From the NCBI RefSeq assembly GCF_013167455.1, contig NZ_CP038328.1: a stretch of DNA of 64,000 bases, one strand, 5' to 3'. This stretch comes from Escherichia coli O157:H7. GTDB lineage: Bacteria > Pseudomonadota > Gammaproteobacteria > Enterobacterales > Enterobacteriaceae. Position 1 is the first letter of the stretch, and each line of letters begins with the position of its first letter. Of this stretch, positions 6,001 to 9,000 are shown piece after piece. Position numbers: made by a program.

Positions 6001-9000
6001 CCATATCGTCCGACATTCCCAGAGAGAGCGTGTCGATATGCGGGTAGCGCGTTTTCAGTCCGGCAAATGCTACAGCCATTTGGCGTGCAACTTCAAACTG
6101 CCTTACATATTCTGACTCAGGCGCAGGGATTGCCATCAGCCCGCGCAGACGTAAACGCGGTAGTTCAGCGACCGCAGCTGCCAGCTCGTCCAGTTCTGCC
6201 AGTTGAATCCCGGACTTACTGTTTTCATCACTAATATTAATTTGAATCAGTACGTTAAGAGGGGGAAGTTCTGCCGGGCGCTGATCGTTGAGGCGGGTAG
6301 CAATGCGCAAACGGTCGATGGTATGACACCAGTCGAAATGCTCTGCCACCAGGCGGCTTTTATTAGACTGCAACGGGCCAATAAAATGCCATTCTAATCC
6401 TGTTACGCCCAGTTCCTGAAAGTGGCGAATTTTATCTACCCCTTCCTGAACGTAGTTTTCACCAAATTGACGCTGCCCGGCATCAATGGCTTCTGCGATG
6501 GCGCTCGCAGGTTTTGTTTTACTGACTGCAAGCAGCGTAATTTCTTCTGGAGAACGGCCGCAACGCGTTGCAGCCGCTGAGATTTTGTCCCGGACCTGTG
6601 CCAGGTTATGCGCAATATCGTTCATTTTCCGAGGATCTTAGTATGAATATGGAAGAAATTGTGGCCCTTAGTGTAAAGCATAACGTCTCGGATCTACACC
6701 TGTGCAGCGCCTGGCCCGCACGATGGCGCATTCGCGGGCTAATGGAAGCTGCGCCGTTTGATGCGCCGGACGTCGAAGAGCTACTGCGGGAGTGGCTGGA
6801 TGACGATCAGCGGGCAATATTGCTGGAGAATGGTCAGCTGGATTTTGCCGTGTCGCTGACGGAAAACCAGCGATTGCGTGGCAGCGCATTCGCGCAACGG
6901 CATGGCATTTCGCTGGCGTTACGGCTGTTACCTTCGCACTGCCCGCAGCTCGAACAGCTTGGCACACCACCGATATTGCCGGAGTTACTCAAGAGCGAGA
7001 ATGGCTTGATTCTGGTGACGGGGGCGACGGGGAGTGGCAAATCTACCACGCTGGCGGCGATGGTTGGTTATCTCAATCAACATGCTGATGCGCATATTCT
7101 GACGCTGGAAGATCCTGTGGAATATCTCTATGCCAGCCAGCGATGTTTGATCCAGCAGCGGGAAATCGGTTTGCATTGTATGACGTTCGCATCGGGATTG
7201 CGGGCCGCATTGCGGGAAGATCCTGATGTGATTTTGCTCGGAGAGCTGCGTGACAGCGAGACAATCCGTCTGGCGCTGACGGCGGCAGAAACCGGGCATC
7301 TGGTGCTGGCAACCTTACATACACGTGGTGCCGCGCAGGCAGTTGAGCGACTTGTGGATTCATTTCCGGCGCAGGAAAAAGACCCCGTGCGTAATCAACT
7401 GGCAGGTAGTTTACGGGCAGTGCTGTCACAAAAGCTGGAAGTGGATAAACAGGAAGGACGCGTGGCGCTATTTGAATTGCTGATTAACACACCCGCGGTG
7501 GGGAATTTGATTCGCGAAGGGAAAACCCACCAGTTACCGCATGTTATTCAAACTGGGCAACAGGTGGGGATGATAACGTTTCAGCAGAGTTATCAGCAGC
7601 GGGTGGGGGAAGGGCGTTTGTGACGTTGCCATGCCCGATGCGCAAGCTTATCGGGCCTACAAAGGCAATAAACGTCTGATGCGACGCTTGCGCGTCTTAT
7701 CAGACCTACAACCGCTGCCACATGTAGGCCGGATAAGGCGTTCACGCCGCATCCGGCAATAAGGCGTAAGGCGCGATGATATTATTTACACTCCAGCAGG
7801 CGATTAAATCTCCTTAATATCCCTGCTCGAAATAGCTTTCGAGAATAATAACCGCAGAGGCAGAGTCGATTTTGCCTTTGTTGAGCGCCCGATAGCCGCC
7901 CTGTTCAAACAGACCGGAACGTGCCTCCACGGTGCTAAGACGCTCGTCATGGAGCTTTACTTCAACACCGAAACGACCATGAATACGGTTAGCAAATTTA
8001 CGCGCTCTGGCGGTTAACGGCTGTTCGGTGCCGTCCATATTCAGCGGTAAACCGACGATGATTTCGTCTGGCTGCCACTCTTTCAGTAAACGTTCGATGA
8101 GGTTCCAGTCCGGCGTACCGTCCTGTGCTTTAATTGCAGGCAAAGGGCGAGCGGTGCCGGTAATGCGTTGGCCGACCGCTACGCCAATGCTTTTGGTGCC
8201 GAAGTCGAAGGCGAGTAAGGTTCCACTCATCAGGCGTGTCCTGCCACACCAGGCATGGTGAGAATATCCACACCAATCAGTTTTGCCGCCTCGCGCCAGC
8301 GGTCGGCAATTGGCGTTTTGAACAGAATATTCAGATCTGCCGGGGCGGTTAGCCACGCGTTATCGAGAATTTCTTGTTCCAGTTGACCTTTTTCCCAGGA
8401 GGCATAGCCCAGAGCCACCAATACGTCAGACGGTTGTTTATCGGTGCCGAGCGTTTCCAGCACATCGCGGGAAGTGGTCATCACTGTGTTGTCTGAAATG
8501 CGAATGCTGGAAGCAAAATTGGAGGGCGGAGTATGCAAAATAAACCCGCGATCTTCAGCCAGTGGGCCGCCGAGCATAACCGGTTTATCCAGACGGATTG
8601 ATTCATCACGCGGCTCCGGCGTGATCTTCAGCTTTTCCAGAATCCCTTCAATTTTGAGATTTTCCAGCGGCTTGTTGACGATGATCCCCATTGCACCATT
8701 GGTATTATGTTCGCAAATGTAGACCACGGAACGACGGAAAATCGGATCCTGGAGAGCAGGCATGGCAATAAGAAAGTGATGCTGTAAATTCATTGTCAGA
8801 GGTTCTGTTTCCTGGTTCAAAAAAGCAACAGCGCCCAGTATGCGTGGAAAGAAGGGCGCTGTCACTCAGAGTCTCAACGAGATCCTTCTCGCTAAGGTGG
8901 GTTACTACTGCTGTAAACGTGCTTCGATGGCATCCATTAACATTCCGGTGATCGACACCGGAAACTCTGCTTCAATCTCACGAATACAGGTTGGGCTGGT

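What the first reader, a model, noticed from the sequence alone, without database searches (positions are those of the whole stretch)
6623..6645. Divergent yggS and yggR start codons only 17 bp apart
The minus-strand yggS ATG (6623-6625) and the plus-strand yggR ATG (6643-6645) leave 17 bp of intergenic DNA. Both promoters must therefore lie inside the neighbouring coding sequence, and the two 5' UTRs would be complementary.
Basis: seen in the sequence. Interest (0 to 1): 0.2.

Follow-up and report, generated by a model that had tools for sequence, protein, structure and literature searches.

The report
Tightly packed divergent yggS/yggR starts
Two E. coli genes that point away from each other (yggS, a vitamin-B6 homeostasis gene, and yggR, a PilT-type pilus-retraction ATPase) really do start only 17 bp apart, so each gene's control DNA must sit inside the other gene; this layout is conserved but belongs to a common, already described class.

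Summary
The yggS ATG (minus strand, 6625-6623) and the yggR ATG (6643-6645) are separated by 17 bp (TTTCCGAGGATCTTAGT). RefSeq annotates the same starts in O157:H7 and K-12. Both N-termini align to position 1 of their family profiles.

The spacing is conserved: 17 bp in Escherichia, Citrobacter, Salmonella, Enterobacter and Leclercia, and 14-16 bp in Klebsiella, Cedecea and two more distant loci. Other divergent yggS|pilT loci have 32, 33 and 168 bp.

The spacer holds a conserved Shine-Dalgarno for yggR and cannot hold a promoter. Indirect evidence puts control DNA inside the neighbouring genes:
- Synonymous sites are frozen in yggR codons 1-20 and yggS codons 1-50.
- A 17-nt block (6667-6683) is invariant and carries -10-like hexamers facing yggS.
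- The 230-bp junction is at least 99% identical in all 5,425 E. coli genomes that match.
- Two Citrobacter genomes split the pair with an inserted gene but duplicated 291 bp, so each gene kept its upstream DNA.

No mapped transcription start could be retrieved. No convincing yggR promoter was found, and one control gene shows a similar 5' codon effect.

Overlapping divergent 5' ends are common in E. coli (136 of 388 divergent operons). The finding is real and conserved but ordinary. One speculative lead is a perfect CRP-S-type palindrome (6494-6509) upstream of yggR.

The parts
5921..6625 (-). yggS coding sequence (PLP homeostasis protein, 234 aa), first gene of yggS-yggT-yggU-rdgB-hemW
   Evidence: ORF. 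RefSeq annotation. Pfam PF01168. TIGR00044 at 347.5 bits, residues 1-229 on profile 1-229.
6623..6625 (-). yggS start codon (ATG, read as CAT on the + strand)
   Evidence: It is the first start codon after the upstream in-frame stop. The N-terminus MNDIAHNLAQV is conserved in 30 loci.
6626..6642 (.). 17-bp spacer TTTCCGAGGATCTTAGT, holding the translation-initiation regions of both genes
   Evidence: The length is 17 bp in 25 Enterobacteriaceae loci, 16 in a Klebsiella MAG and 14 in Cedecea.
6631..6635 (+). yggR Shine-Dalgarno (GAGGA), 7 nt before the ATG
   Evidence: Sequence. GAGGA, GGAGG or GGGA occurs at the same distance in all loci. This implies a leadered yggR mRNA.
6643..6645 (+). yggR start codon
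   Evidence: TIGR01420 alignment starts at residue 2 on profile position 1. Met3 is not conserved.
6643..7623 (+). yggR coding sequence (PilT/PilU-family type IVa pilus ATPase, 326 aa)
   Evidence: Pfam PF00437. TIGR01420 at 467.8 bits against a cutoff of 319.1.
6643..6702 (-). Zone of frozen synonymous sites in yggR codons 1-20. Proposed to hold the yggS promoter and 5' UTR (inferred).
   Evidence: Synonymous-codon identity is 0.91 and 0.87 here against about 0.5 in the rest of yggR. Against Cedecea, 15 of 16 codons are identical here versus 0.38 elsewhere. Caveat: control gene yqgE shows 0.96 and 0.88 in its first 20 codons.
6667..6683 (-). Invariant 17-nt block (minus strand TTATGCTTTACACTAAG) with two overlapping -10-like hexamers: TATGCT (6682-6677) and TACACT (6675-6670)
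   Evidence: Fully invariant in 16 lineages, including a locus whose PilT is only 61% identical. Nearly identical in a 52%-identity locus. It uses non-preferred codons (CTT, AGT, GTA).
6693..6698 (-). Candidate -35 (TGTAGA), 17 bp upstream of TACACT. Predicted yggS transcription start is about 6662-6665, giving a leader of about 37-40 nt.
   Evidence: The hexamer and its 17-bp spacing are kept in L034. It is TGCAGA in L033 and C. youngae. It is a weak match (7 of 12) and is prediction only. The alternative TGCACA-18-TATGCT scores 8 of 12, but its -35 is not conserved.
6476..6625 (+). Zone of elevated synonymous conservation in yggS codons 1-50. Proposed yggR control region (inferred; no promoter identified).
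   Evidence: Synonymous identity is 0.78-0.93 here against 0.5-0.65 later in yggS. It exceeds the controls beyond codon 20. Its edge coincides with the left end of the Citrobacter duplication, which corresponds to window 6477-6767.
6494..6509 (.). Perfect palindrome TGCGATGGCGCTCGCA. It matches the CRP-S (Sxy-dependent CRP) core and is also the stem of a terminator-like hairpin on the + strand (6492-6511 plus a T-run to 6520).
   Evidence: It is the only perfect match in 64 kb. It is conserved in Escherichia, Salmonella diarizonae, Leclercia, Enterobacter and three Citrobacter loci, and degenerate in the other Citrobacter loci. Hairpin. No function was tested.

Best explanation
The 17-bp gap is a real, evolutionarily fixed, ultra-compact divergent control region. 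The spacer holds only the two translation-initiation regions. These are the yggR Shine-Dalgarno GAGGA and, on the other strand, the A-rich region before the yggS ATG.

The two promoters face each other from inside the opposite gene's 5' coding sequence. The yggS-operon promoter most likely lies in yggR codons 8-20. The candidate is TGTAGA-17-TACACT on the minus strand, with a predicted start near 6662-6665 and a leader of about 40 nt. Whatever drives yggR lies within, or upstream of, the first 150 nt of yggS.

The two transcripts would then be complementary over at least the spacer and both start regions. The expected consequences are promoter interference and antisense pairing, as in other overlapping divergent operons or 'excludons'. 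The constitutively used yggS promoter would probably dominate and yggR would stay low.

Shown: the geometry, the correct starts, conservation of the spacing, and nucleotide-level constraint. Inferred: promoter positions, the overlap itself, and any regulatory consequence.
For: - Starts and the 17-bp gap are verified.
- The spacing is kept at 17 bp in 25 loci of five genera, and at 14-16 bp in four more divergent loci.
- The conserved Shine-Dalgarno in the spacer requires a leadered yggR mRNA.
- Synonymous sites are frozen in yggR codons 1-20 and yggS codons 1-50.
- A 17-nt block carrying -10-like hexamers is invariant down to a 61%-identity PilT.
- The 230-bp junction is at least 99% identical in all 5,426 matching E. 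coli records. Only 340 records reach that level over the whole 1.75 kb.
- In two Citrobacter genomes an inserted gene separates the pair, but a 291-bp direct duplication leaves yggS with 125 nt of yggR 5' sequence and yggR with 149 nt of yggS 5' sequence.
- Overlapping divergent 5' ends are frequent in E. coli and are a major source of RNase III-cleaved dsRNA (PMC4161252; PMC7373196).
Against: - No experimental transcription start could be retrieved.
- The consensus scan found no promoter at 9 or more of 12 matches. The best candidates score only 7-8 of 12.
- No plausible yggR promoter was found.
- Elevated synonymous conservation in the first 20 codons also occurs in control gene yqgE (0.96, 0.88) and more weakly in yggT. 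That signal is therefore not specific to an embedded promoter.
- The duplicated copies in Citrobacter are near-identical within each genome. They do not reveal which bases are needed.
- The retrievable p19 dsRNA tables list hot spots in the yggS body but none in the predicted overlap. One of those files was truncated.
Confidence: 0.6

Rival explanations
1. Only yggS has a working promoter at this junction. yggR has no proximal promoter. It is effectively silent in standard conditions, or it is transcribed only from far upstream (antisense through the yggS body), or only with an activator. In that case there is one 5' UTR antisense to yggR, not two mutually complementary UTRs.
For: No sigma-70-like match was found upstream of yggR. 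p19-captured dsRNA hot spots at yggS nt 242-658 show low-level transcription in the yggR direction starting at least 280 nt upstream of the yggR ATG (PMC7373196 supplement). From my own knowledge, not tested here: other E. coli type IV pilus genes are undetectable without Sxy (see also PMC1635313).
Against: yggR keeps an intact ORF, a conserved Shine-Dalgarno and a conserved start across genera. The first 150 nt of yggS are more constrained than controls. The Citrobacter duplication retained 149 nt upstream of yggR.
Confidence: 0.3
2. Back-to-back leaderless transcription from one symmetric bidirectional promoter in the spacer. The two ATG adenines (6625 and 6643) are 18 bp apart. From my own recollection of Warman et al. 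2021 (not retrieved here), that is the spacing typical of bidirectional promoters with overlapping -10 elements. The transcripts would not overlap.
For: The geometry fits. The hexamers GAGGAT (6631-6636, + strand) and GATCCT (6637-6632, - strand) both have A at position 2 and T at position 6 (sequence).
Against: Each hexamer matches only 3 of 6 positions and there is no -35. In Enterobacter kpr-6 and Cedecea the equivalent positions lose the A/T pattern but keep a Shine-Dalgarno, so the motif is conserved as a ribosome-binding site. This model also would not explain the constraint reaching 60 and 150 nt into the genes.
Confidence: 0.03
3. The tight spacing is an annotation artefact. One of the genes really starts further downstream, which would leave a normal intergenic region.
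For: yggR has a second in-frame ATG at 6649.
Against: Both N-termini align from position 1 of their NCBIfam profiles. Met3 of YggR is Leu or Ile in other genera. yggS has no other start codon nearby. Using ATG 6649 would add only 6 bp.
Confidence: 0.02

Closest known systems
Overlapping divergent operons / 'excludon'-type 5' overlaps in E. coli (Conway et al. 2014, PMC4161252; Huang et al. 2020, PMC7373196; ExcludonFinder 2025, PMC12288877)
   Same: Divergently oriented neighbours whose promoters lie beyond each other's starts. Their 5' ends are therefore complementary and can cause transcriptional interference and RNase III-cleaved dsRNA.
   Different: For yggS/yggR the overlap is inferred from geometry and conservation, not from mapped transcripts. 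The intergenic gap (17 bp) is far shorter than usual, so the promoters must lie wholly inside coding sequence. Reciprocal expression has not been shown.
Conserved yggS-pilT divergent gene linkage (Wang et al. 2022, PMC8787154; Tremiño et al. 2022 review, PMC9605639)
   Same: The same gene pair, contiguous and divergently transcribed, in gamma- and beta-proteobacteria. I found it again in loci with 46-61% identical PilT.
   Different: Those papers describe the synteny, mainly in plant pathogens. The passages I retrieved do not discuss the spacing, the embedded promoters or the nucleotide-level constraint.
Face-to-face promoter interference, e.g. coliphage 186 pR/pL (Callen, Shearwin and Egan 2004; from my own knowledge, not retrieved)
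   Same: Two promoters firing towards each other across a short overlap, with the strong one repressing the weak one.
   Different: In the phage it is a developmental switch with measured interference. Here neither promoter strengths nor interference have been measured.
CRP-S (Sxy-dependent CRP) sites of competence and type IV pilus genes (Cameron and Redfield 2006, PMC1635313)
   Same: A perfect TGCGA-N6-TCGCA core (C6 in both half-sites) lies 134-149 bp upstream of the start of a type IV pilus gene.
   Different: The site lies inside a coding sequence and is degenerate in many Citrobacter loci. It has no promoter at a standard CRP distance. yggR was outside that study's gene set, and I found no paper linking yggR to Sxy.

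Membership tests
PilT/PilU family type IVa pilus ATPase (yggR) | Full-length match to TIGR01420 above the curated cutoff, plus a T2SSE ATPase domain | tested here: met
   TIGR01420 at 467.8 bits against a cutoff of 319.1, residues 2-325 on profile 1-328. PF00437 E = 1.5e-50.
PilT/PilU family type IVa pilus ATPase (yggR) | Pilus-retraction activity in vivo | not testable with these tools
   Needs genetics or microscopy. A preprint only calls yggR a PilT orthologue (10.1101/2021.10.23.465551).
YggS/PLPBP (COG0325) PLP homeostasis protein (yggS) | Full-length match to TIGR00044 and the fold-type III PLP barrel domain | tested here: met
   TIGR00044 at 347.5 bits against a cutoff of 106.25, residues 1-229 on profile 1-229. 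PF01168.
Overlapping divergent operons / excludon | Adjacent genes on opposite strands, transcribed away from each other | tested here: met
Overlapping divergent operons / excludon | Mapped transcription starts showing that the two transcripts overlap | tested here: inconclusive
   No start data were reachable. The overlap is inferred from the 17-bp gap, the conserved Shine-Dalgarno and sequence constraint.
Overlapping divergent operons / excludon | Mutually exclusive or antagonistic expression of the two neighbours | not testable with these tools
   Needs expression measurements with promoter mutants.
Sigma-70 promoter (for yggS, inside yggR) | -35 and -10 hexamers with 16-18 bp spacing close to consensus | tested here: inconclusive
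   Nothing scored 9 or more of 12. TGCACA-18-TATGCT scores 8 of 12. TGTAGA-17-TACACT scores 7 of 12 but is conserved across genera.
CRP-S (Sxy-dependent CRP) site | 22-bp symmetric site with core T4G5C6G7A8-N6-T15C16G17C18A19 | tested here: met
   TGCGATGGCGCTCGCA at 6494-6509 is the only perfect match in 64 kb. 16 of 100 shuffles gave at least one match.
CRP-S (Sxy-dependent CRP) site | Conserved across orthologous promoters, and placed at a CRP-activating distance from a promoter | tested here: inconclusive
   Perfect in 13 fetched loci, which include the source-strain locus L001 and K-12 L002. The left half is TTCGA in most Citrobacter loci and the right half is CCGCA in Cedecea and L033. 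No -10 lies at a position giving -41.5 or -61.5 (my inspection).
CRP-S (Sxy-dependent CRP) site | Sxy- and CRP-dependent induction of the downstream gene | not testable with these tools
   No paper in the library links yggR to Sxy. Sinha et al. 2009 is not held.

The most novel reading that the evidence does not exclude
The junction could be a conserved two-way switch that couples the PLP-homeostasis/envelope operon (yggS-yggT-...) to the pilus-retraction ATPase. In this reading the yggS leader is a built-in antisense RNA covering the yggR ribosome-binding site. yggR escapes only when CRP-Sxy binds the perfect CRP-S palindrome embedded in yggS codons 39-44 (6494-6509). That would make yggR an overlooked member of the E. 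coli competence/type IV pilus regulon, with its operator hidden in a housekeeping coding sequence.
Probability: 0.1. Interest if true: 0.45.

Novelty: new member of a known kind. Interest (0 to 1): 0.18.

Why it matters
On its own the finding matters little. It is a clean, extreme example of a common arrangement: divergent genes with promoters buried in each other's coding sequence.

It has some practical value:
- Deletions or insertions in the first 60 nt or so of yggR, including Keio-type yggR knockouts, may remove the yggS-operon promoter. Changes in the first 150 nt of yggS may affect yggR. Phenotypes assigned to either gene could therefore be polar on the other.
- It is a compact natural test case for how coding and regulatory constraints share the same nucleotides.
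- If the CRP-S lead is real, it would supply the missing retraction ATPase for the Sxy-controlled type IV pilus and competence regulon of E. coli.

Tried and rejected
- **Transcription-start tables.** Thomason 2015 is not held. Conway 2014 has no supplements held. Kim 2012 has no hit by gene name or by coordinate. SMRT-Cappable-seq has no hit. The Cappable-seq GTF is truncated and has no hit. ExcludonFinder has no supplements held.
- **Term-seq (Adams 2021).** It lists only one 3' end antisense to yggR, near its 3' end, and nothing at the junction.
- **Rfam.** Nothing at the junction, only sub-threshold REP-like naRNA4 matches downstream of yggR.
- **RNA folding of the predicted leaders.** No unusual structure (z = +1.0 and +1.3).
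- **Other promoter types, by eye.** Sigma-54: a TGGCAC is present but the -12 element is poor. Sigma-32: CTTTACA...TTCCATAT needs a 17-bp spacer and the -10 part is not conserved in L034. TTTACA as a -35: no conserved -10 at 16-19 bp. All were rejected as unconvincing.
- **Released-from-coding test.** I hoped the duplicated gene fragments in Citrobacter would show which bases are constrained. The copies are near-identical within each genome, so the test is uninformative.
- **Possible yggR pseudogenes.** The Leclercia NCTC13032 and C. amalonaticus AUH frameshifts may be long-read sequencing errors, so I did not use them.
- **The search for homologous proteins.** It returned only close relatives. 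More distant loci came from the representative search.
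Full report
**1. The observation**

The window is E. coli O157:H7, 100% identical to NZ_AP018488.1. 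At 6620-6645 the + strand reads gttCATtttccgaggatcttagtATG. CAT at 6623-6625 is the minus-strand ATG of a 234-aa ORF. ATG at 6643-6645 opens a 326-aa reading frame. The spacer, 6626-6642, is 17 bp.

RefSeq annotates exactly these starts in the O157 genome. It does the same in K-12 MG1655, where yggR is 3094100-3095080 (-) and yggS is 3095098-3095802 (+).

YggS matches TIGR00044 and PF01168. YggR matches TIGR01420 (PilT/PilU family) and PF00437.

**2. Are these the true start codons?**

Several results say yes.
- Both proteins align to their family profiles from profile position 1.
- The yggS ATG is the first start codon after the upstream in-frame stop.
- The alternative yggR ATG at 6649 encodes a residue that is Leu or Ile in other genera.
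- GAGGA (6631-6635) sits 7 nt upstream of the yggR ATG. A GAGGA, GGAGG or GGGA motif is at the same place in every Enterobacteriaceae locus.

The gap is unusually short. The five divergent pairs in 50 kb of this window have gaps of 382, 371, 277, 55 and 17 bp.

**3. Conservation of the arrangement**

A scan of one genome per species with YggR returned 30 Enterobacteriaceae loci.
- The yggS-to-yggR spacer is exactly 17 bp in Escherichia (five species or lineages), Citrobacter, Salmonella diarizonae, Enterobacter and Leclercia.
- It is 16 bp in a Klebsiella MAG and 14 bp in Cedecea.

More distant PilT representatives came from the representative search and from contig look-ups.
- The same divergent yggS|pilT pair has a gap of 15 bp at 61% identity and 14 bp at 52% identity.
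- Other loci have gaps of 32 and 33 bp, and 168 bp in a low-GC lineage.
- Two further PilT homologues are not next to yggS.

The yggS/pilT divergent linkage itself is already published (PMC8787154, PMC9605639).

**4. Evidence that control DNA lies inside the coding sequences**

(a) Geometry. Seventeen base pairs cannot hold a promoter. The conserved Shine-Dalgarno in the spacer also means the yggR mRNA must begin further upstream, inside yggS.

(b) Synonymous sites. Across 25 sequences the fraction of identical codons among identical amino acids is as follows.
- yggR codons 1-10: 0.91. Codons 11-20: 0.87. The rest of yggR: about 0.5.
- yggS codons 1-50: 0.78-0.93. Later in yggS: 0.5-0.65.

Against Cedecea, 15 of 16 shared codons in yggR 1-20 are identical, versus 38% elsewhere.

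(c) An invariant block. CTTAGTGTAAAGCATAA (6667-6683) is invariant in 16 lineages, including the 61%-identity locus. It is nearly intact at 52% identity. On the minus strand it reads TTATGCTTTACACTAAG and holds two overlapping -10-like hexamers, TATGCT and TACACT. A TGTAGA hexamer lies 17 bp upstream of TACACT, and this spacing is also kept in the distant loci.

(d) Within E. coli. The 230 bp from 6476 to 6705 are at least 99% identical in all 5,426 matching records. Only 340 records reach 99% over 5900-7650.

(e) A natural experiment. In Citrobacter youngae CCUG 30791 and C. portucalensis A60 the two genes are separated by 1.27 and 1.47 kb. Of this, 964 and 1,159 bp are foreign DNA encoding a 139-aa secreted DUF3828 protein.
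- The foreign DNA is flanked by a 291-bp direct duplication, corresponding to window 6477-6767.
- yggS therefore keeps the spacer plus 125 nt of yggR, and yggR keeps the spacer plus 149 nt of yggS.
- The left edge of the duplication coincides with the end of the constrained zone in yggS.

**5. Caveats**

- I could not retrieve any mapped transcription start for either gene.
- The consensus scan finds no promoter at 9 or more of 12 matches in 6100-7200. The best candidates score only 7-8 of 12.
- I found no credible sigma-70 promoter for yggR.
- The 5' synonymous-site effect is not unique. Control gene yqgE shows 0.96 and 0.88 in its first 20 codons, and yggT shows 0.82 and 0.73. Only the extension to codon 50 in yggS, and the persistence of the yggR block at 52-61% protein identity, go beyond these controls.
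- The duplicated fragments in Citrobacter are almost identical to their functional copies within each genome. The duplication is recent or homogenised, and it does not reveal which bases matter.

**6. Most likely mechanism**

The two promoters probably face each other, each embedded in the other gene's 5' coding sequence.
- The yggS-operon promoter would lie in yggR codons 8-20, with a predicted start near 6662-6665 and a leader of about 40 nt.
- That leader would be antisense to the yggR Shine-Dalgarno and start codon.
- yggR would be driven from within or upstream of yggS codons 1-50.

This is the layout of overlapping divergent operons. Conway et al. found 136 of 388 divergent E. coli operons with overlapping 5' ends. 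Such overlaps are the main source of abundant p19-captured dsRNA.

For yggS, that study's supplement lists low-abundance duplex hot spots at yggS nt 242-658. Some transcription in the yggR direction therefore crosses the yggS body. This also leaves room for the rival view that yggR has no proximal promoter at all.

The leaderless back-to-back model fits the 18-bp distance between the two ATG adenines. The sequence and the conserved Shine-Dalgarno do not support it.

**7. A side lead**

TGCGATGGCGCTCGCA at 6494-6509 is a perfect CRP-S core (TGCGA-N6-TCGCA). This is the Sxy-dependent CRP motif of competence and type IV pilus genes (PMC1635313).
- It is the only perfect match in the 64-kb window.
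- It lies 134-149 bp upstream of the yggR ATG.
- It is perfect in Escherichia, S. diarizonae, Leclercia, Enterobacter and three Citrobacter loci.
- One half-site is altered in most other Citrobacter loci, the Klebsiella MAG, Cedecea and L033.
- No -10 element lies at a standard CRP distance from it.
- It also reads as a terminator-like hairpin followed by a T-run on the yggR-sense strand.
- It overlaps the conserved SKTKPAS motif of YggS, so the match may be a coincidence of coding sequence.
- No paper I could search links yggR to Sxy.

I rate this reading as speculative, with a probability of about 0.1.

**8. Verdict**

The complementary-UTR claim remains unproven, and the phenomenon is a known, common class.

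Interest is low (0.18). The main practical point is that mutations near either 5' end may affect the neighbouring gene.

Noticed in passing
L019 1229-2500 and L026 1034-2500 (junction corresponds to window 6477-6767): Citrobacter youngae CCUG 30791 and C. portucalensis A60 carry 964 and 1,159 bp of foreign DNA between yggS and yggR. It encodes a 139-aa signal-peptide DUF3828 protein and is flanked by a 291-bp direct duplication of the junction. Each copy carries its own genome's variants, which suggests gene conversion or a recent event.
   Followed up: partly
window 6494-6509 (hairpin and T-run 6492-6520): This is the only perfect TGCGA-N6-TCGCA (CRP-S core) in the 64-kb window. It lies inside yggS, 134-149 bp upstream of the yggR ATG. 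It also reads as a terminator-like hairpin on the + strand (-8.9 kcal/mol) and as a hairpin in the yggS mRNA (-9.7 kcal/mol, z = -3.6).
   Followed up: partly
window 6056-6115 (yggS codons 171-190): A second island of frozen synonymous sites lies inside yggS (0.94 and 0.79 against about 0.55). It contains a promoter-like TTGAAG-18-TAGCAT on the minus strand, with the -10 ending at 6067. This could be an internal promoter for yggT (ATG at 5903).
   Followed up: partly
window 8734-8793 (yqgE codons 1-20, minus strand): yqgE, used as a control, has equally strong synonymous-site conservation in its first 20 codons (0.96 and 0.88 against 0.58). I have no explanation for it.
   Followed up: no
window 5968-6384 (yggS nt 242-658): Published p19-captured 21-22-nt RNA duplexes map at four spots inside yggS in K-12 (PMC7373196 supplement). 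They indicate low-level antisense transcription across yggS in the yggR direction.
   Followed up: partly
window ~7382 (MG1655 3094341, K-12 + strand) and 7602-7772: Published Term-seq lists a 3' end antisense to yggR, about 425 nt past the ruvX stop (PMC7815308 supplement). The ruvX transcript therefore seems to read into the 3' part of yggR, a convergent overlap. The yggR-ruvX intergenic region gives sub-threshold REP-like naRNA4 matches.
   Followed up: no
window 6628-6705 versus plasmid NZ_CP194962.1 147078-147155: A 243-kb E. coli plasmid carries a 100% identical copy of the spacer plus the first 63 nt of yggR, annotated as a T2SS/T4P ATPase. Three plasmid places match in all. Papers on ISEcp1-blaCMY-2 mobilisation also mention yggR.
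   Followed up: no
L029 2501-3474 and L032 2501-3481: yggR is frameshifted in the Leclercia adecarboxylata NCTC13032 and C. amalonaticus AUH_CA_2023_1 assemblies. The junction and the first 60 nt or so are intact. These could be pseudogenes or long-read sequencing errors.
   Followed up: partly
window 15037-15093: The next-tightest divergent pair in the window is yqgD/metK, with a 55-bp gap.
   Followed up: no
window 38580-39476: The LysR-family regulator gene srsR is annotated as a pseudogene (internal stop) in this O157:H7 strain.
   Followed up: no
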